From IMG/VR virus record IMGVR_UViG_2690316278_000005: a stretch of 9,160 nt of DNA. One strand, given 5' to 3'. Position numbers and translations under genes: made by a program. Shown one piece after another: positions 1 to 9,160 of the stretch (its first letter is position 1; every line of letters begins with the position of its first letter). A model generated the notes under the pieces. The model had not been told where the DNA came from. It ran no database searches and worked only from the letters and a program-made list of their open reading frames with translations. This DNA comes from a virus (taxonomy: Duplodnaviria > Heunggongvirae > Uroviricota > Caudoviricetes).

Positions 1-1
1 G

Positions 2-109
2 GCGAATTACCGTCTTATATCACTGGCGCTGACATCTCCGGATGACGGGGGCAGCTGTTATCTCTGGCTCAACCGTGGGCAACCACCCGCAGTTAACCGG
101 CGACGATAA
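2..109 (+). CDS. FII: 3' end of head-tail joining / tail attachment protein (lambda FII-like); 5' end lies outside the window
   Basis: Frame 2 translates to ...SPDDGGSCYLWLNRGQPPAVNRRR then TAA at 107-109, which resembles the lambda FII C-terminus as I remember it. It sits immediately upstream of Z, as in lambda. Confidence 0.7.
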   Translation, partial: ANYRLISLALTSPDDGGSCYLWLNRGQPPAVNRRR

Positions 110-123
110 ACGCAGGGTGAATT

Positions 124-699
124 ATGGCGATAAAAGGGCTTGATCAGGCGATTGACAATCTGAACCGGGTTCGTAAAAACGCCATTCCGGCTGCTTCTGC
201 AATGACCATTAACCGCGTGGCCACAACGGCGATTAATCAGTCTTCGTCACAGGTTGCCCGGGAAACCAGGGTGAGACGGAAACTGGTAAAGGAACGGTCC
301 AGACTGAAACGGGCGACGGTCAGAAATCCGAATGCCAGAATTATCGTTAACCGCGGTGATCTCCCTGTGATTAAGCTGGGGATCAGAATGCTGGGGCGTC
401 GTCCGAACAGCATACTCAAAGCCGGTCAGCATCGTTATCAGCGGGCATTTATCCAGCGATTAAATAATGGGCGCTGGCATGTTATGCAACGTCTTCCCCA
501 GGCCAGATATGAGGAGGGCAATGACGACAAGGGAAGGAAAAAGCGTAATCGCCTTCCCATTCAGGTGGTGAAAATCCCGATGGCGGCCCCACTGAAACAG
601 GCATTTGATGAGAATGTTGACCGTATCCGGCGTGAACGCCTGCCTAAAGAACTGGCATACGCGCTGAAACAACAACTGAGGATTGCGATAAAACGATGA
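124..699 (+). CDS. Z: Minor tail protein Z (tail completion)
   Basis: 191-aa ORF, MAIKGLDQAIDNLNRV...RIAIKR, closely similar to lambda gpZ from memory. SD-like AGGGTGA lies 5-6 nt upstream of the ATG. The stop overlaps the U start in an ATGA at 696-699 (translational coupling). Confidence 0.9.
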   Translation: MAIKGLDQAIDNLNRVRKNAIPAASAMTINRVATTAINQSSSQVARETRVRRKLVKERSRLKRATVRNPNARIIVNRGDLPVIKLGIRMLGRRPNSILKAGQHRYQRAFIQRLNNGRWHVMQRLPQARYEEGNDDKGRKKRNRLPIQVVKIPMAAPLKQAFDENVDRIRRERLPKELAYALKQQLRIAIKR

Positions 700-1091
700 A
701 ACACACTGACATTCGTGCCGCAGTGCTGGATGCACTCAAGCAGCATGAACACGGGGCGACGCTGTTTGATGGTCGCCCCGTTGTTTTTGACGAAGAGGAT
801 TTTCCTGCGATCGCGGTTTATCTGACGGATGCAGAGTATACCGGTGAAGAGCTGGATGCAGATACCTGGCGGGCCACACTGCATATTGAGGTGTTTTTAC
901 CGGCACAGGTACCTGATTCGGAGCTCGATCAGTGGATGGAAAGCCGGATTTATCCGGCGATGACTGCGATCCCTGCACTGGCAGGACTGATTACCACGAT
1001 GGTTACGCAGGGCTATGAGTATCGTCGTGATGACGATATGGCGTTATGGAGCTCTGCGGATCTGACTTATTCCATTACATACGAGATGTGA
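696..1091 (+). CDS. U: Tail terminator protein U
   Basis: 131-aa [31 protein letters not shown]...[10 protein letters not shown], near-identical in length and sequence to lambda gpU (131 aa). ATGA overlap with Z. Confidence 0.92.
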
Positions 1092-1098
1092 GGACGAT

Positions 1099-1902
1099 AT
1101 GGCAACACCAAATCCCCTGGAGCCGGTAAAAGGTGCCGGTACCACTCTGTGGGTTTACAACGGCAAGGCTGATGCTTATGCAAACCCGTTGTCAGACGAT
1201 GACTGGCNNNNNNNNNNNNNNNNNNNNNNNNNNNNNNNNGACTGGCTAAGGTGAAGGATCTGACGCCGGGCGAGATGACGGCTGAATCCTATGATGATAA
1301 CTACCTGGATGATGAAGACGCGGACTGGAGCGCGACCGGGCAGGGGCAGAAATCTGCAGGTGATANNNNNNNNNNNNNNNNNNNNNNNNNNNNNNNNNNN
1401 NNNNNNNNNNNNNNNNNNNNNNNNNNNNNNNNNNNNNNNNNNNNNNNNNNNNNNNNNNNNNNNNNNNNNNNNNNNNNNNNCTATAAAATCCGTTTTCCGA
1501 ATGGCACGGTGGATGTGTTTCGTGGCTGGGTCAGCAGTATCGGTAAGGCCGTGACGGCGAAAGAAGTGATCACCCGCACGGNNNNNNNNNNNNNNNNNNN
1601 NNNNNNNNNNNNNNNNNNNNNNNNNNNNNNNNNNNNNNNNNNNNNNNNNNNNNNNNNNNNNNNNNNNNNNNNNNNNNNNNNNNNNNNNNNNNNNNNNNNN
1701 NNNNNNNNNNNNNNNNNNNNNNNNNNNNNNNNNNNNNNNNNNNNNNNNNNNNNNNNNNNNNNNNNNNNNNNNNNNNNNNNNNNNNNNNNNNNNNNNNNNN
1801 NNNNNNNNNNNNNNNNNNNNNNNNNNNNNNNNNNNNNNNNNNNNNNNNNNNNNNNNNNNNNNNNNNNNNNNNNNNNNNNNNNNNNNNNNNNNNNNNNNNN
1901 NN
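1099..1902 (+). CDS. V: Major tail tube protein V; 3' end is masked and the end coordinate is estimated
   Basis: ATG at 1099 with GAGGA SD upstream. N-terminus [36 protein letters not shown] matches lambda gpV, and the unmasked islands [41 protein letters not shown] (1242-1364) and [33 protein letters not shown] (1482-1581) also match. The frame before and after the 32-nt N run 1208-1239 differs (frame 1 then frame 3). End extrapolated from the lambda gpV length of 246 aa. Confidence 0.65.
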
Positions 1903-2019
1903 NNNNNNNNNNNNNNNNNNNNNNNNNNNNNNNNNNNNNNNNNNNNNNNNNNNNNNNNNNNNNNNNNNNNNNNNNNNNNNNNNNNNNNNNNNNNNNNNNN
2001 NNNNNNNNNNNNNNNNNNN

Positions 2020-2535
2020 NNNNNNNNNNNNNNNNNNNNNNNNNNNNNNNNNNNNNNNNNNNNNNNNNNNNNNNNNNNNNNNNCGCTGCAGCGTATCAAG
2101 CATCTTGCCCTCCTGAAACGGCGTGCAGAACAGGCAGAATCCAGCGGCAACCTGCAGGTAAGCGTGGAAGATCTCGTCAGAACCGGCGCGTTTCTGGTGG
2201 CGATGTCCCTGTGGCATAACCATCCACAGAAAACGCAGTCACCGTCAATGAATGAGGCCGTGATGAAGATAGAGCAGGAAGTGCTCACCNNNNNNNNNNN
2301 NNNNNNNNNNNNNNNNNNNNNNNNNNNNNNNNNNNNNNNNNNNNNNNNNNNNNNNNNNNNNNNNNNNNNNNNNNNNNGGCCTGCCGATGCCATTGCCCGG
2401 GCGGAAGACGTGGTGTTGTGCCTGTCCGGGATGATCGAAGCTGTTCGTCCGGATACTGATATTACTGAAGTGGCGAAAAATAACACGCTGACTGATGATG
2501 ATTTTTCTGCGGGAAAGTCTTCGACGGCGAGCTGA
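2020..2535 (+). CDS. G: Tail assembly chaperone G; 5' end is masked and the start is estimated
   Basis: Frame 1 reads LQRIKHLALLKRRAEQAESSGNLQVSVEDLVRTGAFLVAMSLWHNHPQKTQSPSMNEAVMKIEQEVLT ... PADAIARAEDVVLCLSGMIEAV ... SAGKSSTAS then TGA at 2533-2535, matching lambda gpG. Start placed about 22 codons upstream of the first visible residue by analogy with lambda. Confidence 0.75.
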   Translation, partial: XXXXXXXXXXXXXXXXXXXXXXLQRIKHLALLKRRAEQAESSGNLQVSVEDLVRTGAFLVAMSLWHNHPQKTQSPSMNEAVMKIEQEVLTXXXXXXXXXXXXXXXXXXXXXXXXXXXXXXPADAIARAEDVVLCLSGMIEAVRPDTDITEVAKNNTLTDDDFSAGKSSTAS

Positions 2536-2975
2536 ACTTTGCCCTCAGACTGGCGCGTGAGATGGGGAGACCCGACTGGCGCGCCATGCTTGCCGGGATG
2601 ACATCCACCGAATATGCCGACTGGCGCCGTTTTTACCGCACGCATTATTTTCAGGATACCCAGCTGGATATGCATTTTTCCGGGCTGACGTACGCTGTAC
2701 TCAGCCTGTTTTTTTGCGATCCGGATATGCATCCCTCTGATTTCAGTCTGCTTGTCCCCCGGCATGAGGAAGAGCAGGTGGAGAGGCCGGATGAGGACAA
2801 AATGCTGATGCAGAAAGCGGCAGGACTTGCCGGAGGCGTCCGGTTCGGTGGGGACGGAGGGCGCGATATTTTATCGTCTGCGGATGTGGCGGATGTCATG
2901 GTGGATGATGCCGCATTAATGATGGCTTCAGCGGGGATTCCGGGAGGTGTGAGATATGTCCCAGCCGGTTGGTGA
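2020..2975 (+). CDS. T: G-T tail assembly chaperone fusion made by programmed -1 ribosomal frameshift at 2511-2517; T-specific part is 2517-2975
   Basis: Slippery heptamer G_GGA_AAG lies at 2511-2517 in the G frame. The -1 frame continues VFDGELNFALRLAREMGRPDWRAMLAGMTSTEYADWRRFYRTHYFQD...GGVRYVPAGW then TGA at 2973-2975, matching the lambda gpT portion of gpGT. Confidence 0.75.
2511..2517 (+). other. Programmed -1 frameshift slippery heptamer GGGAAAG (G to G-T)
   Basis: Exact G GGA AAG in the G zero frame, 19 nt before the G stop. The -1 frame downstream is open and T-homologous. Confidence 0.8.
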
Positions 2976-5587
2976 TCTTGTTATTGACCTGAGTCTGGAT
3001 GCTGTNNNNNNNNNNNNNNNNNNNNNNNNNNNNNNNNNNNNNNNNNNNNNNNNNNNNNNNNNNNNNNNNNNNNNNNNNNNNNNNNNNNNNNNNNNNNNNN
3101 NNNNNNNNNNNNNNNNNNNNNNNNNNNNNNNNNNNNNNNNNNNNNNNNNNNNNNNNNNNNNNNNNNNNNNNNNNNNNNNNNNNNNNNNNNNNNNNNNNNN
3201 NNNNNNNNNNNNNNNNNNNNNNNNNNNNNNNNNNNNNNNNNNNNNNNNNNNNNNNNNNNNNNNNNNNNNNNNNNNNNNNNNNNNNNNNNNNNNNNNNNNN
3301 NNNNNNNNNNNNNNNNNNNNNNNNNNNNNNNNNNNNNNNCATGTTCAGGGGGCTTGCCGATGCGATCACCCTGCCGATGGTCGGGGTCACCTCGCTGGCG
3401 GTGGCGACAGGTGCACTGGTGTACGCCTGGTACCAGGGAGATTCCACGCTTTCAGCGTTTAATAAAACCCTGGTTCTTTCCGGTAATCAGTCCGGACTGA
3501 CTGCCGATCGTATGCTGACTCTCTCAAGAGCCGGGCAGGCAGCAGGGCTGACGTTTAACCAGGCGAGAGAGTCACTGGCAGCCCTGGTGAATGCCGGTGT
3601 GCGTGGTGGTGAACAGTTTGATGCCATCAACCAGAGTGTCGCGCGTTTTGCGTCTGCATCCGGTGTGGAGGTGGATAAAGTCGCTGAAGCCTTCGGGAAG
3701 CTGACCACTGACCCGACGTCGGGACTGATGGCGATGGCGCGCCAGTTCCGTAACGTGACGGCAGAGCAGATTGCGTATGTTGCACAGCTGCAGCGTTCCG
3801 GAGACGAGGCCGGGGCATTGCAGGCGGCGAACGATATCGCCACGAAAGGCTTTGATGAGCAGACCCGTCGCCTGAAAGAAAACATGGGAACACTGGAGAC
3901 CTGGGCGGATAAAACAGGGAAGGCATTCAAATCGATGTGGGATGCCATTCTGGATATCGGTCGTCCGGAATCCTCAGCGGATATGCTCGCCAGTGCGCAG
4001 AAGGCATTTGATGAGGCGGATAAAAAATGGCAGTGGTACCAGAGTCGGAGCCAGCGCCGCGGTAAAACCTCCTCTTTCCGGGCCAACCTTCAGGGCGCAT
4101 GGGATGACCGGGAAAATGCCCGTCTGGGTCTGGCAGCGGCAACGCTGCAGTCGGATATGGAAAAAGCCGGTGAACTGGCGGCAAGGGACAGGGCTGAGCG
4201 TGAGTCGTCACAGCTGAAGTATACCGGAGAGGCGCAGAAGGCGTATGAGCGCCTGCTGACGCCACTGGAGAAATATACCGCCCGGCAGGAAGAGCTGAAT
4301 AAGGCCCTGAAAGACGGGAAAATCCTGCAGGCGGATTACAACACGCTGATGGCGTCGGCAAAAAAGGATTATGAGTCGACGCAGAAAAAGCCGTCCGGTG
4401 TGAAGGTGTCTGCCGGTGAGCGCCAGGAAGACCAGGCGCATGCAGCCCTGCTGGCGCTTGAAACTGAGCTCAGGACGCTGGAGAAGCACAGCGGTGCGAA
4501 TGAAAAAATCAGCCAGCAGCGCCGTGATTTATGGAAAGCGGAAAATCAGTATGTGGTCCTGAAAGAGGCCGCCACGAAACGGCAGTTATCTGAGCAGGAA
4601 AAATCCCTGCTGGCCCATGAGAAAGAAACGCTGGAGTACAAACGCCAGCTGGCTGAGCTGGGCGACAAGATTGAACACCAGAAACGGCTGAATGAGCTGG
4701 CACAGCAGGCGGCGCGGTTTGAACAGCAGCAGAGCGCGAAGCAGGCGGCAATCAGCGCAAAAGCCCGCGGACTCACCGACCGTCAGGCGCAGCGGGAGTC
4801 GGAAGAGCAGCGCCTTCGTGAGGTGTACGGTGATAATCCGGCTGCGCTGGCGAAGGCCACATCTGCACTGAAGAACACCTGGTCTGCGGAGGAGCAGCTT
4901 CGTGGAAGCTGGATGGCCGGGATGAAGTCCGGCTGGGGCGAGTGGGCGGAAAGTGCGACGGACAGTTTTTCGCAGGTTAAAAACGCGGCCACGCAGACCT
5001 TTGACGGTATTGCACAGAATATGGCAGCGATGCTGATCGGCAGCGAACAGAACTGGCGTGGTTTCACCCGTTCTGTGCTGTCCATGCTGACAGAGATTTT
5101 TCTGAAGCAGGCGATGGTGGGGATAGTCGGGAGTATCGGCAGCGCCATTGGCGGTGCTTTCGGTGGTGGTGCGTCTGCCTCCACGGGGACGGCCATTCAG
5201 GCTGCGGCGGCGAACTTCCATTTCGCGACCGGGGGATTTACGGGGACGGGGGGTAAATATGAACCTGCGGGGATTGTTCATCGCGGGGAGTTTGTCTTCA
5301 CGAAGGAGGCGACCAGCCGGATTGGTGTCGGCAATCTGTACCGCCTGATGCGGGGCTATGCGGAAGGTGGTTATGTCGGCGGTGCCGGAAGTCCGGCGCA
5401 GATGCGGCGGGCTGAAGGCATTAATTTTAATCAGAACAATCACGTGGTGATTCAGAACGACGGCCCCAACGGGCGGGCAGGGCCGCAGCTGATGAAAGCG
5501 GTGTATGAGATGGCCCGCAAGGGGGCACAGGATGAACTCCGGCTGCAGTTGCGTGATGGCGGTATGTTATCAGGGAGCGGTGGATGA
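2956..5587 (+). CDS. H: Tail tape measure protein H
   Basis: ATG at 2956 with strong SD GGGAGGTG upstream. N-terminus MSQPVGDLVIDLSLDA matches lambda gpH (MAEPVGDLVVDLSLDA). From 3341 a long ORF (MFRGLADAITLPMVGVTSLAVATGALVYAWYQ ... NQNNHVVIQNDG ... RDGGMLSGSGG then TGA at 5585-5587) is collinear with lambda gpH. The N-terminus (frame 1) and body (frame 2) are out of frame across the masked run 3006-3339. Overlaps the T end by 20 nt and the M start in an ATGA. Confidence 0.85.
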
Positions 5588-5913
5588 AAACCTTTCGCTG
5601 GAAAGTGAAGCCGGATATGGAGGTGAACTCGCAGCCATCGGTGCGTGAAGTGCGTTTTGGTGACGGGTACTCACAGCGTATGGCGGCAGGGCTGAATGCT
5701 GACCTGAAAACATACAGGGTGACGCTTTCCGTGACCCGGGAGGAGGCCCGGCATCTGGAAGCGTTCCTGGCAGAGCACGGTGGCTGGAAGGCATTTTTGT
5801 GGAAGCCACCCTATGCATACCGGCNNNNNNNNNNNNNNNNNNNNNNNNNNNNNNNNNNNNNNNNNNNNNNNNNNNNNNNNNNNNNNNNNNNNNNNNNNNN
5901 NNNNNNNNNNNNN
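5584..5913 (+). CDS. M: Minor tail protein M; 3' end is masked and the end is estimated
   Basis: MKTFRWKVKPDMEVNSQPSVREVRFGDGYSQRMAAGLNADLKTYRVTLSVTREEARHLEAFLAEHGGWKAFLWKPPYAYR matches the lambda gpM N-terminus. ATGA overlap with the H stop. End extrapolated from lambda gpM (109 aa). Confidence 0.8.
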
Positions 5914-6611
5914 NNNNNNNNNNNNNNNNNNNNNNNNNNNNNNNNNNNNNNNNNNNNNNNNNNNNNNNNNNNNNNNNNNNNNNNNNNNNNNNNNNNNNNN
6001 NNNNNNNNNNNNNNNNNNNNNNNNNNNNNNNNNNNNNNNNNNNNNNNNNNNNNNNNNNNNNNNNNNNNNNNNNNNNNNNNNNNNNNNNNNNNNNNNNNNN
6101 NNNNNNNNNNNNNNNNNNNNNNNNNNNNNNNNNNNNNNNNNNNNNNNNNNNNNNNNNNNNNNNNNNNNNNNNNNNNNNNNNNNNNNNNNNNNNNNNNNNN
6201 NNNNNNNNNNNNNNNNNNNNNNNNNNNNNNNNNNNNNNNNNNNNNNNNNNNNNNNNNNNNNNNNNNNNNNNNNNNNNNNNNNNNNNNNNNNNNNNNNNNN
6301 NNNNNNNNNNNNNNNNNNNNNNNNNNNNNNNNNNNNNNNNNNNNNNNNNNNNNNNNNNNNNNNNNNNNNNNNNNNNNNNNNNNNNNNNNNNNNNNNNNNN
6401 NNNNNNNNNNNNNNNNNNNNNNNNNNNNNNNNNNNNNNNNNNNNNNNNNNNNNNNNNNNNNNNNNNNNNNNNNNNNNNNNNNNNNNNNNNNNNNNNNNNN
6501 NNNNNNNNNNNNNNNNNNNNNNNNNNNNNNNNNNNNNNNNNNNNNNNNNNNNNNNNNNNNNNNNNNNNNNNNNNNNNNNNNNNNNNNNNNNNNNNNNNNN
6601 NNNNNNNNNNN
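5913..6611 (+). CDS. L: Minor tail protein L, inferred from synteny only; lies entirely inside the masked run
   Basis: No readable sequence. In lambda, L (232 aa) follows M and precedes K, and the masked run 5825-7273 is long enough to hold it. Coordinates are a guess. Confidence 0.25.
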
Positions 6612-7069
6612 NNNNNNNNNNNNNNNNNNNNNNNNNNNNNNNNNNNNNNNNNNNNNNNNNNNNNNNNNNNNNNNNNNNNNNNNNNNNNNNNNNNNNNNNN
6701 NNNNNNNNNNNNNNNNNNNNNNNNNNNNNNNNNNNNNNNNNNNNNNNNNNNNNNNNNNNNNNNNNNNNNNNNNNNNNNNNNNNNNNNNNNNNNNNNNNNN
6801 NNNNNNNNNNNNNNNNNNNNNNNNNNNNNNNNNNNNNNNNNNNNNNNNNNNNNNNNNNNNNNNNNNNNNNNNNNNNNNNNNNNNNNNNNNNNNNNNNNNN
6901 NNNNNNNNNNNNNNNNNNNNNNNNNNNNNNNNNNNNNNNNNNNNNNNNNNNNNNNNNNNNNNNNNNNNNNNNNNNNNNNNNNNNNNNNNNNNNNNNNNNN
7001 NNNNNNNNNNNNNNNNNNNNNNNNNNNNNNNNNNNNNNNNNNNNNNNNNNNNNNNNNNNNNNNNNNNNN

Positions 7070-7669
7070 NNNNNNNNNNNNNNNNNNNNNNNNNNNNNNN
7101 NNNNNNNNNNNNNNNNNNNNNNNNNNNNNNNNNNNNNNNNNNNNNNNNNNNNNNNNNNNNNNNNNNNNNNNNNNNNNNNNNNNNNNNNNNNNNNNNNNNN
7201 NNNNNNNNNNNNNNNNNNNNNNNNNNNNNNNNNNNNNNNNNNNNNNNNNNNNNNNNNNNNNNNNNNNNNNNNNGGGGTGACGGACTGTTACACGCTGTTC
7301 CGGGATGCTTATCATCTGGCGGGGACTGAAATGCCGGATTTTCATCGCGAGGATGACTGGTGGCGCAACGGTCAGAACCTTTACCTGGACAATATGGCGG
7401 TCACCGGCTTTTACCGGGTGCCCCTGTCCTCTGCACAGGCGGGCGATATTCTGCTGTGCTGCTTTGGTGCTTCGGTACCGAACCATGCCGCCATTTACTG
7501 CGGCAACGGTGAGCTGCTTCACCATCTGCCTGAACAACTGAGTAAACGGGAGAGGTATTCCGAAAAATGGCAACGACGAACGCATTCAGTCTGGCGTCAC
7601 CGCCACTGGCACGCATCTGCCTTCACGGGGATTTACAACGATTTGGCCGCCGCCTCAGCCTGTATGTGA
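7070..7669 (+). CDS. K: Tail tip assembly protein K (NlpC/P60-type C-terminal domain); 5' end is masked and the start is estimated
   Basis: Readable from 7274: GVTDCYTLFRDAYHLAGTEMPDFHRE...GDILLCCFGASVPNHAAIYCGNGELLHHLPEQLSKRERYSEKWQRRTHSVWRHRHWHASAFTGIYNDLAAASACM then TGA at 7667-7669, matching the lambda gpK C-terminal half including the conserved Cys and His of the NlpC/P60 fold. Start extrapolated from lambda gpK (199 aa). Confidence 0.75.
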   Translation, partial: XXXXXXXXXXXXXXXXXXXXXXXXXXXXXXXXXXXXXXXXXXXXXXXXXXXXXXXXXXXXXXXXXXXXGVTDCYTLFRDAYHLAGTEMPDFHREDDWWRNGQNLYLDNMAVTGFYRVPLSSAQAGDILLCCFGASVPNHAAIYCGNGELLHHLPEQLSKRERYSEKWQRRTHSVWRHRHWHASAFTGIYNDLAAASACM

Positions 7670-8247
7670 ACACGGCAGCGGAAGCCATTCGCGCCCTGTC
7701 GATGCAGATGCCGGGCTTTCGCCGTCAGATGAACGAAGGCTGGTACCAGATACGTATTGCCGGTTATGACACGGCACCGGAGGCGGTGTACGCCCGTCTT
7801 CACGAACAGCTGGGTGAGGGAACGGTCATCCACATTGTGCCGCGACTGGCCGGGGCCGGAAAGGGTGGACTGCAGATTGTGCTGGGGGCGGCAGCCATCG
7901 TGGGCTCTTTCTTCACTGCCGGGGCATCAATGGCGTTATGGGGTTCAGCCCTGGCAGCCGGTGGTTTTTCTGCCACCACGATGCTGTTTTCACTTGGAGC
8001 CAGCATGATTCTGGGCGGTGTGGCCCAGATGCTGGCCCCGAAGGCAAAAACACCGGATTACCGCGCAACGGATAACGGCAGACAGAACACGTACTTTTCC
8101 TCACTGGATAACATGATTGCCCAGGGGAACCCGATGCCGGTGCCTTACGGGGAAATGCTGGTTGGCTCCCGCCGTATATCCCAGGACATCAGCACCCGTG
8201 ATGAAGGCGGGGGCGGAAAGGTCGTGGTTATCGGGCGGCAGGGGTAA
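7567..8247 (+). CDS. I: Tail tip assembly protein I
   Basis: 226-aa ORF, MATTNAFSLASPPLARICLHGDLQRFGRRLSLYVNTAAEAIRAL...GEMLVGSRRISQDISTRDEGGGGKVVVIGRQG then TAA at 8245-8247, matching lambda gpI. SD GAGAGG upstream. Overlaps the K 3' end by 103 nt, as in lambda. Confidence 0.9.
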   Translation: MATTNAFSLASPPLARICLHGDLQRFGRRLSLYVNTAAEAIRALSMQMPGFRRQMNEGWYQIRIAGYDTAPEAVYARLHEQLGEGTVIHIVPRLAGAGKGGLQIVLGAAAIVGSFFTAGASMALWGSALAAGGFSATTMLFSLGASMILGGVAQMLAPKAKTPDYRATDNGRQNTYFSSLDNMIAQGNPMPVPYGEMLVGSRRISQDISTRDEGGGGKVVVIGRQG

Positions 8248-8253
8248 AAAGAA

Positions 8254-8292
8254 TAAAAAAATCCCGCAGTGATCGCGGACAGGAACTGCGGG
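8254..8292 (-). terminator. Rho-independent terminator for a minus-strand transcript
   Basis: Inverted repeat CCCGCAGT (8263-8270) and ACTGCGGG (8285-8292). On the minus strand the stem is followed immediately by AUUUUUUUAUUCUUUUU (plus 8262 down to 8246). There is no T-run after the stem on the plus strand, so it is unidirectional. Confidence 0.6.
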
Positions 8293-8351
8293 AGAGTTAC
8301 GAAGATTAAGTGTAAGGAATTATTCTTATATCACGACAAAAAAATTAACGC
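8254..8351 (-). ncRNA. Candidate small non-coding RNA of about 95-100 nt (unnamed), running from the predicted start site near 8350 to the intrinsic terminator
   Basis: Bounded by the minus-strand promoter at 8358-8385 and the terminator at 8254-8292. Contains no ATG and no plausible ORF (the only start-like codon is GTG-ATA-TAA). AT-rich body with a CU-rich stretch UUCCUUACACUUAAUCUUCG. Prediction from sequence signals only. Confidence 0.4.
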
Positions 8352-8357
8352 AGAGAA

Positions 8358-8385
8358 ATTATACGCGCCACAGTCAGTTTGTGAA
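8358..8385 (-). promoter_or_regulatory. Sigma70-type promoter on the minus strand: -35 TTCACA, 16-bp spacer, -10 TATAAT
   Basis: Minus-strand sequence TTCACA aactgactgtggcgcg TATAAT; 11 of 12 consensus positions with a near-optimal spacer and AT-rich sequence upstream of the -35. Predicted start about 7 nt downstream, near plus coordinate 8350. Confidence 0.45.
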
Positions 8386-8451
8386 AATGTGAAGATATTC
8401 AGAATTTTTATGCCATTACCGGTTTTAACCAACAGGATTATCGGTGGGCAT

Positions 8452-8492
8452 GAAAGAAAACCCCGGTATCTGCTGATACCGGGGTTTCTCTT
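8452..8492. terminator. Bidirectional Rho-independent terminator
   Basis: Perfect 9-bp inverted repeat CCCCGGTAT (8461-8469), 6-nt loop CTGCTG, ATACCGGGG (8476-8484), extendable by A-T pairs. Flanked by TTTCTCTTT on the plus strand and by TTTTCTTTC on the minus strand (complement of GAAAGAAAA at 8452-8460). Confidence 0.6.
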
Positions 8493-8590
8493 TAGCATGG
8501 CAGAAATGTGTTTCATGCTTTTCGGGCGAAGGATATCCGACTTCTGTACGGAATGGCAAGTGGCGGTTAATTTATTCAGGGGAAGGCTGT

Positions 8591-9160
8591 ATGGGAAAAG
8601 GTGGCGGTAAGGCACACACGCCTCGTGAGGCGAAGGATAATCTCAAATCCACGCAGATGATGAGCGTGATTGATGCGATTGGTGAGGGACTGATAGAAGG
8701 TCCGGTGAAGGGACTGCAGAGTATCCTGGTGAACAAAACCCCGCTGACGGACACGGACGGTAATCCCGTGATACACGGTGTGACGGCGGTCTGACGCGCC
8801 GGGGAGCAGGAGCAGACACCACCGGAAGGCTTTGAGTCCTCCGGTGCTGAAACCGGACTGGGCGTGGAAGTGACGAAGGCAAAACCGGTGACGCGCACCA
8901 TTACGTCCGCGAACATTGACCGCCTGCGGGTTACCTTCGGGGTGCAGTCACTGGTGCAGACCACGTCAAAGGGTGACCGAAACCCGACATCCGTCCGCCT
9001 GCTGATTCAGTTACAGCGTAACGGTAACTGGGTGACAGAAAAGGATGTCACCATTAACGGCAAGACCACCTCGCAGTTTCTGGCGTCGGTGATTCTGGAT
9101 AATCTGCCTCCCCGTCCTTTTAACATCCGGATGGTCCGGGAGACAGCGGACAGCACCACG
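8591..9160 (+). pseudogene. J: Tail tip / host specificity protein J, 5' portion, interrupted by an in-frame TGA at 8792-8794 (codon 68); J homology continues in the same frame to the window end
   Basis: ATG at 8591 with SD GGGGAAGG upstream. MGKGGGKAHTPREAKDNLKSTQMMSVIDAIGEGLIEGPVKGLQSILVNKTPLTDTDGNPVIHGVTAV then TGA, then in frame RAGEQEQTPPEGFESSGAETGLGVEVTKAKPVTRTITSANIDRLRVTFGVQSLVQTTSKGDRNPTSVRLLIQLQRNGNWVTEKDVTINGKTTSQFLASVILDNLPPRPFNIRMVRETADSTT. This is collinear with lambda gpJ residues 1 to about 190; lambda has Phe at the TGA position. Confidence 0.75.

What the first reader, a model, noticed from the sequence alone, without database searches (positions are those of the whole stretch)
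8789..8797. In-frame TGA at J codon 68 with intact J homology on both sides
The J reading frame is GVTAV-TGA-RAGEQEQTPPEGFESSG..., where lambda has ...GVTVVFRAGEQEQ.... The downstream frame stays open and J-like for at least 122 codons to the window end, so the coding signal has not decayed. The possibilities are a very recent nonsense mutation (defective prophage, no functional tail tip), a sequencing error, or a leaky stop: UGA followed by C is a weak termination context in E. coli and can be read through at low level.
Basis: partly seen in the sequence, partly recalled or inferred. Interest (0 to 1): 0.5.

Follow-up and report, generated by a model that had tools for sequence, protein, structure and literature searches.

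The report
Broken tail-tip gene in Shigella prophage
The in-frame TGA is a real, inherited nonsense mutation (TGG Trp to TGA) in the tail-tip gene J of a decayed lambda-like prophage remnant carried by Shigella sonnei; further damage downstream and the missing head genes make it an ordinary pseudogene, not a recoding signal.

Summary
A lambda-J-like gene starts at 8591 and has TGA at codon 68 (8792-8794), with J homology on both sides.

The nearest intact J genes (E. coli ATCC 25922 and others, 99.7% identical) read TGG (Trp) there, so the stop is a single G-to-A transition at 8794.

It is not a sequencing error:
- The same allele sits in 15 fetched loci, most from chromosome-sized Shigella sonnei records such as strain 53G.
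- The exact 67-aa truncated product is recorded on 551 contigs.
- It is absent from 5,426 complete E. coli genomes, where the TGG allele occurs at 3,816 places.

It is not a functional leaky stop:
- In all 14 allele-bearing loci that extend far enough, J also carries a 22-bp deletion at nt 1875. This shifts the frame and gives a stop at codon 639.
- Two loci have a further 17-bp deletion.
- The prophage is cut inside gene FII by an insertion sequence (window 34/35), and no head genes are called upstream in any of the ten genome loci.
- No unusual RNA structure follows the UGA.

Verdict: plain, clonally inherited pseudogenisation in a defective prophage. It is ordinary and already visible in public annotation as split J ORFs.

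The parts
8591..8794 (+). 5' fragment of the lambda-J-like tail-tip gene: 67 codons plus the premature TGA. Public assemblies call it as a separate 67-aa ORF.
   Evidence: ORF 8591..8794. (alignment with lambda J and intact relatives). (exact product called in complete S. sonnei genomes; 551 contigs).
8792..8794 (+). Premature stop codon TGA (codon 68). It derives from TGG (Trp) by a G>A change at 8794.
   Evidence: ATCC 25922 has TGG; only 2 differences in 601 nt. (TGA allele: no hit in 5,426 complete E. coli genomes). (TGG allele: 3,816 places in 1,370 genomes). (exact TGA 42-mer in 5 IMG/VR contigs).
8795..9160 (+). Continuation of the J pseudogene in the original frame (codons 69-190), running off the window. 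In near-identical loci this frame ends at codon 639, after a 22-bp deletion at J nt 1875.
   Evidence: homology. (downstream lesions in L002, L004-L006 and L008-L017).
8691..8691 (+). Second substitution relative to intact J (C>T, Pro34Leu in the conserved EGPIEGP motif). It is absent from L006, which already has the TGA and the 22-bp deletion, so it is the later event.
1..34 (.). Probable end of an insertion sequence (ends ...CTGACA). Homology to intact prophages stops here.
   Evidence: matches to intact prophages begin at query position 35. (an IS21-type istA gene lies about 190 nt upstream of Z in L008-L014, L016 and L017). (sequence). The assignment of these 34 bases to the IS terminus is an inference.
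35..109 (+). Last 75 nt of the FII-like head-tail joining gene. This is all that remains of the head module.
   Evidence: window 35 corresponds to L019 position 3001, inside the CDS at 2722..3075 of E. coli 09-02E.
124..8247 (+). Lambda-type tail module: Z 124-699, U 696-1091, V from 1099, G ending at 2535, T 2562-2975, H 2956-5587, M from 5584, L, K ending at 7669, I 7667-8247. It is partly masked by N runs. In the unmasked S. sonnei loci the genes have the same lengths as in intact prophages.
   Evidence: ORFs. (gene calls with Pfam families in L008-L017). (intact relative).

Best explanation
The TGA is a fixed nonsense mutation, W68* (TGG>TGA, G>A at window 8794), in gene J. J encodes the tail-tip / host-specificity protein of a lambda-like prophage remnant in the Shigella sonnei chromosome.

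The remnant can no longer make phage. An insertion sequence cuts it inside gene FII, and no head or packaging genes are called upstream. J has collected several independent lesions that are inherited vertically:
- W68* and a 22-bp slippage deletion at nt 1875, present in all members seen.
- P34L, present in most members.
- A 17-bp slippage deletion at nt 1654, present in a subset.

Translation ends at codon 68. The rare ribosomes that read UGA as Trp would still stop at codon 639, after the frameshift. The good J homology downstream of the stop only shows that too little time has passed for it to erode.

Shown: the mutation, its spread among assemblies, the extra lesions, and the IS truncation. 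Inferred: that the window's own J carries the 22-bp deletion beyond its end, and that the decay is neutral.
For: -: TGA at 8792-8794, in frame at codon 68.
- the closest intact J (ATCC 25922) differs at 2 of 601 nt and has TGG.
- an allele-specific 55-mer search finds no TGA allele, but 3,816 TGG places, in 5,426 complete E. coli genomes.
- five IMG/VR contigs carry the exact TGA 42-mer and are 99.5-100% identical to the window wherever they align.
- the exact 67-aa product is called in chromosome-sized records including HE616528 (S. sonnei 53G). Sources name it as S. sonnei. It is on 551 contigs.
-:
  - 14 of 14 allele-bearing loci that reach nt 1875 have a 22-bp deletion between CTGACGG direct repeats. 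This shifts the frame and gives a stop at codon 639.
  - L004 and L016 also have a 17-bp deletion between GGTGTGG repeats.
  - L006 has W68* and the 22-bp deletion but not P34L, so the lesions form a nested series.
- no complete E. coli genome matches across the 22-bp deletion junction.
- gene callers split J into 67 + 547 + 513 aa.
  - IS21-type and IS3-type transposase genes lie directly upstream of Z.
  - In L015, lysis genes adjoin Z.
  - Some strains have further lesions: H split, I split, tail-fibre gene hit by an IS.
- homology to an intact prophage begins at window 35, inside FII.
- no Rfam family, and no above-chance RNA structure after the UGA (z = -0.41).
Against: - The window ends at J nt 570, so the 22-bp deletion is not seen in the window itself. 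It is inferred from near-identical loci.
- The other tail genes (Z to I) are full length in most strains. This could be read as retention under selection, although the short time available for decay explains it equally well.
- Some of the 15 loci may be the same strain held in two collections (for example L004 and L016), so the number of independent assemblies is somewhat below 15.
Confidence: 0.95

Rival explanations
1. Sequencing or assembly error: the true base at 8794 is G, and J is intact at this codon.
For: The stop differs from the intact allele by one base. No complete E. coli genome has it.
Against: - The same base is present in 15 fetched loci from many assemblies, including finished chromosomes.
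- The exact truncated product is on 551 contigs.
- It co-occurs with a 22-bp deletion in every locus that extends far enough.
- Its absence from the E. coli collection is explained by the source being Shigella sonnei.
Confidence: 0.01
2. Leaky or programmed UGA readthrough: Trp-tRNA decodes the weak UGA-C signal often enough to supply functional full-length J.
For: - UGA is the leakiest stop in E. coli, read by Trp-tRNA in competition with RF2 at about 1e-3 to 1e-2 (PMC10570021).
- A following C is a weak context (own knowledge: Poole, Brown and Tate 1995).
- Readthrough would restore the ancestral Trp.
Against: - A 22-bp frameshifting deletion lies downstream in 14 of 14 loci.
- The stop is not conserved among orthologues: TGG at 3,816 places.
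- No stimulatory structure follows it, and there is no Rfam hit.
- No head or packaging genes are called upstream of the IS junction, so a functional J would serve no virion.
Confidence: 0.01
3. Selected inactivation: loss of J, or of tail production, was advantageous to the host, and the nonsense allele was fixed by selection rather than by drift.
For: J alone is broken in all members, while Z to I are mostly full length. Both early substitutions in the first 570 nt change the protein.
Against: - Two substitutions are far too few for any test of selection.
- The head module is already gone, so J has no function left to select against.
- S. sonnei is known for pervasive pseudogene and IS accumulation under weak selection (own knowledge).
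- Strain-specific lesions also hit H, I, T and the tail-fibre gene.
Confidence: 0.04

Closest known systems
Bacteriophage lambda gene J (gpJ, central tail fibre / tail-tip host-specificity protein)
   Same: - 76% amino-acid identity over the first 190 codons.
- Same position after Z-U-V-G-T-H-M-L-K-I and before a lom-like gene.
   Different: - Interrupted by TGA at codon 68; lambda has Phe there and the closest relatives have Trp.
- In sister loci, also interrupted by a 22-bp frameshifting deletion.
- The spacer between I and J is 343 nt, against 60 nt in lambda.
Intact J of ExPEC prophages (E. coli ATCC 25922 WP_016265923.1; UID2309220041 WP_059293907.1)
   Same: - ATCC 25922: 99.7% DNA identity over window 8560-9160.
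- UID2309220041: 97.9% identity to the whole J of the allele-bearing locus L006.
   Different: These genes have TGG at codon 68, Pro at codon 34 and no 22-bp deletion. They are annotated as full-length J of 1,157-1,230 aa.
Cryptic or defective lambdoid prophages of Shigella and E. coli that decay by IS insertion, deletion and point mutation
   Same: - IS-truncated.
- Head module missing.
- Nested series of inactivating lesions inherited clonally.
   Different: Nothing of substance. This is a typical example.
Programmed stop-codon readthrough and selenocysteine recoding
   Same: An in-frame UGA followed by open, homologous coding sequence.
   Different: - The stop is not conserved among orthologues.
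- No downstream structure.
- The frame is broken again downstream.

Membership tests
Lambda gpJ-type tail-tip gene | Sequence homology to lambda J | tested here: met
   76% identity to lambda J over 190 aa, and 99% to the intact J of ATCC 25922; in sister loci the downstream fragments carry the Pfam families FNIII-A_GpJ, Phage-tail_3, Ig_J, Phage_Tail_Tip and Ig_GpJ_C.
Lambda gpJ-type tail-tip gene | Position downstream of tail genes K and I and upstream of lom and the side tail-fibre gene | tested here: met
Lambda gpJ-type tail-tip gene | One uninterrupted reading frame of about 1,130-1,230 codons (a functional gene) | tested here: not met
   TGA at codon 68. A 22-bp deletion at nt 1875 in 14 of 14 sister loci.
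Programmed stop-codon readthrough / selenocysteine recoding | The stop codon is conserved at this position among orthologues | tested here: not met
   TGG at 3,816 places in E. coli; TGA only in the S. sonnei-type clone. Lambda has TTC.
Programmed stop-codon readthrough / selenocysteine recoding | An intact downstream frame that yields a functional extended product | tested here: not met
   frameshift at nt 1875, stop at codon 639.
Programmed stop-codon readthrough / selenocysteine recoding | A stimulatory RNA element (SECIS-like hairpin or other structure) just 3' of the UGA | tested here: not met
   MFE -30.9 kcal/mol against a shuffle mean of -29.7 (z = -0.41); no Rfam family in the window.
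Programmed stop-codon readthrough / selenocysteine recoding | Measured readthrough above background | not testable with these tools
   Needs a reporter fusion or proteomics.
Pseudogene in a defective prophage | The lesion is a simple mutation of an intact orthologue's sense codon | tested here: met
   TGG>TGA, a single transition.
Pseudogene in a defective prophage | Additional independent inactivating lesions in the same gene or element | tested here: met
   (22-bp and 17-bp deletions). (IS elements; H, I and tail-fibre lesions in individual strains). (truncation inside FII).
Pseudogene in a defective prophage | The allele is inherited across many isolates rather than private to one assembly | tested here: met
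   15 loci; 551 contigs with the exact product.

The most novel reading that the evidence does not exclude
The fragments of J are not dead. Background Trp readthrough of the UGA, or reinitiation at internal starts (the 547-aa and 513-aa ORFs that gene callers find), would yield polypeptides. These would assemble with the still full-length Z-to-I tail proteins into a tail-like particle or some other host-serving structure in Shigella sonnei.
Probability: 0.02. Interest if true: 0.4.

Novelty: already known. Interest (0 to 1): 0.07.

Why it matters
It matters little beyond correct annotation. This J should be labelled a pseudogene of a defective prophage and not be counted as a recoding candidate.

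The nested lesions (W68* plus the 22-bp deletion, then P34L, then the 17-bp deletion) could serve as simple clonal markers within Shigella sonnei. They also give a small worked example of stepwise prophage decay.

Tried and rejected
- **Exact 42-mer with the TGA in genome contigs:** no match. This is probably because that collection holds one genome per GTDB species and Shigella falls under E. coli (my inference).
- **Allele-specific 55-mer megablast against complete E. coli genomes:** no TGA allele. The control with G gave 3,816 places. This test only sees alleles that share an exact 28-mer around the site, so a TGA in more divergent J copies would be missed.
- **Junction-specific 54-mer for the 22-bp deletion:** only partial matches to undeleted alleles (positions 16-54). 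None spans the junction.
- **Selenocysteine or a structured readthrough signal:** the fold of 8786-8865 is no better than shuffles, and there is no Rfam hit.
- **Phage collection:** best identity 97% over the 601 bases queried, and no record at 99% or above.
- **AgvB/AsxR as the identity of the I-J spacer RNA:** the paper places those sRNAs downstream of PR', not in the tail region, so this was rejected. The spacer RNA turned out to be PasB-like.
- **Not done:** the large protein searches, structure prediction and the metagenome scan were not needed.

Full report
**1. Observation**

The window carries a lambda-type tail gene cluster. An ORF starts with ATG at 8591 and reads MGKGGGKAHTPREAKDNLKST...IHGVTAV. 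A TGA follows at 8792-8794 (codon 68). The same frame then continues RAGEQEQTPPEGFESSG... without another stop for 122 codons, to the window end.

Aligned with lambda J (NC_001416, 15505-18903), the 190 codons are 76% identical.

**2. What the codon was**

The closest intact genes are annotated 'phage attachment tail tip protein J' in E. coli ATCC 25922 and about 20 other complete genomes. They are 99.7% identical over 601 nt.

The pairwise alignment shows exactly two differences:
- TGG in place of TGA, i.e. G>A at window 8794.
- CCG in place of CTG at 8691, i.e. Pro34Leu in the EGPIEGP motif that lambda shares.

The ancestral residue in this J lineage is therefore Trp, and the stop is one transition away from it.

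**3. Is it an error, and how widespread is it?**

I used a 55-mer with the variant base at position 28, so that every 28-nt megablast seed must contain it.
- The TGA version finds nothing in 5,426 complete E. coli genomes.
- The TGG control finds 3,816 places in 1,370 genomes.

The exact 42-mer with TGA is absent from the one-genome-per-species collection. It is present in five IMG/VR contigs, which are 99.5-100% identical to the window wherever they align.

Looking up the exact 67-aa truncated product gave these results:
- It is listed in 633 blocks of the assembly collection.
- The ten places shown include nine chromosome-sized records, among them HE616528.1.
- It is recorded on 551 contigs.
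- Source names include 'Host specificity protein, Shigella sonnei'.

HE616528 is S. sonnei strain 53G (PMC5447701). So the source is a Shigella sonnei-type genome. That explains the absence from the E. coli collection, and the allele is clonally inherited rather than an assembly artefact.

**4. Is J otherwise intact?**

No. I aligned the J region of every allele-bearing locus to the closest intact J (strain UID2309220041, 1,157 aa).
- All 14 loci that reach nt 1875 have a 22-bp deletion there (L002, L004, L005, L006, L008-L017). It shifts the frame and creates a stop at codon 639.
- The deletion lies between two copies of CTGACGG, the signature of replication slippage.
- No complete E. coli genome matches across that junction.
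- L004 and L016 carry an additional 17-bp deletion at nt 1654, between GGTGTGG repeats.
- L006 has W68* and the 22-bp deletion but still has Pro34. All other loci, and the window, have Leu34.

The lesions thus form a nested series: W68* and the 22-bp deletion first, then P34L, then the 17-bp deletion. This is what vertical descent with continuing decay predicts. Gene callers accordingly split J into 67 + 547 + 513 aa pieces.

The window stops at J nt 570. The 22-bp deletion in its own genome is therefore an inference from these near-identical loci.

**5. State of the prophage**

Matches of the whole window to intact prophages begin at window position 35. In E. coli 09-02E that point lies inside the FII-like head-tail joining gene, 75 nt before its end.

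Window 1-34 ends in ...CTGACA. In nine of the ten genome loci an IS21-type istA gene sits about 190 nt upstream of Z, with further IS3-type transposase genes beyond it. In L015 a holin gene and a DUF1327 gene adjoin Z, separated from it only by a transposase fragment.

No head, portal or terminase genes are called upstream of Z in any of the ten loci, so the element cannot form virions whatever the state of J.

The tail genes Z to I have wild-type lengths in most strains. Individual strains show further damage:
- H split, in L015.
- I split, in L013.
- The tail-fibre gene hit by an IS, in L014 and L017.

**6. The recoding idea**

In E. coli, stop-codon readthrough runs at about 1e-3 to 1e-2, and UGA readthrough reflects Trp-tRNA competing with RF2 (PMC10570021). 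UGA-C is a poor termination context (own knowledge: Poole, Brown and Tate 1995). Readthrough here would even reinstate the ancestral Trp.

Three tests for programmed recoding nonetheless fail:
- The stop is not conserved among orthologues.
- The 80 nt around and after it fold no better than shuffled sequence (z = -0.41), and no Rfam family matches.
- The downstream frame is broken again (section 4).

A ribosome that read through would terminate at codon 639.

**7. Comparison with what is known, and verdict**

This is a lambda gpJ-type gene by homology and position, but it fails the 'intact ORF' criterion. It is a pseudogene in a cryptic, IS-truncated lambdoid prophage. That is the common fate of prophages in Shigella, whose genomes are rich in IS elements and pseudogenes (own knowledge). 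Public annotation already shows the split ORFs.

Novelty: already known in kind. Interest: low.

**8. Side observations**

- **PasB-like sRNA.** The 343-nt spacer between I and J holds, on the minus strand, a near-consensus promoter (TTCACA-16-TATAAT, 8385 to 8358) and a terminator hairpin with a T run (8279-8263).
  - This aligns with the experimentally validated Hfq-dependent sRNA PasB of EPEC E2348/69 (NC_011601, 1466343 to 1466261, 83 nt; PMC8550237 supplement).
  - That sRNA lies in the same I-J spacer.
  - Twenty of the 23 bases of the published Northern probe match the window exactly.
  - Promoter and terminator are conserved, while the body is about 67% identical.
- **G/GT frameshift site.** The lambda G/GT programmed -1 frameshift site G GGA AAG is intact at 2511-2517, in the right frames.
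- **N runs.** The window's N runs are together 601 nt longer than the sequence they replace in sister loci. Reading frames across them are therefore unreliable.

Noticed in passing
window 8255-8385, minus strand (I-J spacer 8248-8590): A small transcription unit: promoter-like TTCACA-16-TATAAT (8385 to 8358), then a terminator hairpin at 8279-8263 with a T run. It is homologous to the validated Hfq-dependent prophage sRNA PasB of EPEC E2348/69 (83 nt, same I-J spacer). Twenty of the 23 probe bases match exactly; promoter and terminator are conserved; the body is about 67% identical, so this is a PasB variant. Rfam has no family for it.
   Followed up: partly
window 8459-8495: A perfect 10-bp GC-rich hairpin (CCCCGGTATC...GATACCGGGG) with A/T-rich runs on both sides. 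It looks like a bidirectional intrinsic terminator in the middle of the late tail operon. A weak minus-strand promoter-like site lies at 8559 to 8530, so a second small RNA is possible. This segment is absent from the E2348/69 spacer.
   Followed up: no
window 1-123: The prophage is truncated. Positions 1-34 look like an IS terminus (...CTGACA), and 35-109 are the last 75 nt of the FII head-tail joining gene. In S. sonnei genomes an IS21-type istA lies just upstream, and no head genes are called upstream.
   Followed up: partly
window 2511-2517: The conserved lambda G/GT programmed -1 frameshift site G GGA AAG is present 16 nt before the G stop codon (2533-2535). The -1 frame runs into T (ATG at 2562). 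This is a genuine recoding signal in the same window.
   Followed up: partly
window 1208-1239, 1366-1480, 1582-2083, 2290-2377, 3006-3339, 5825-7273: Six runs of N. Together they are 601 nt longer than the corresponding stretches in near-identical loci (L006, and E. coli 09-02E), so they do not preserve length or frame. ORFs listed across them (for example the 862-aa 'H' starting at 2999) are artefacts. The true H start is the ATG at 2956.
   Followed up: partly
L006 12035-14374 (IMG/VR contig IMGVR_UViG_2693429733_000004): After a single N at 12034, a second, diverged J-like segment follows the first J (58% amino-acid identity to J residues 286-1134). It is probably a scaffold join to another prophage rather than a tandem duplication.
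   Followed up: no
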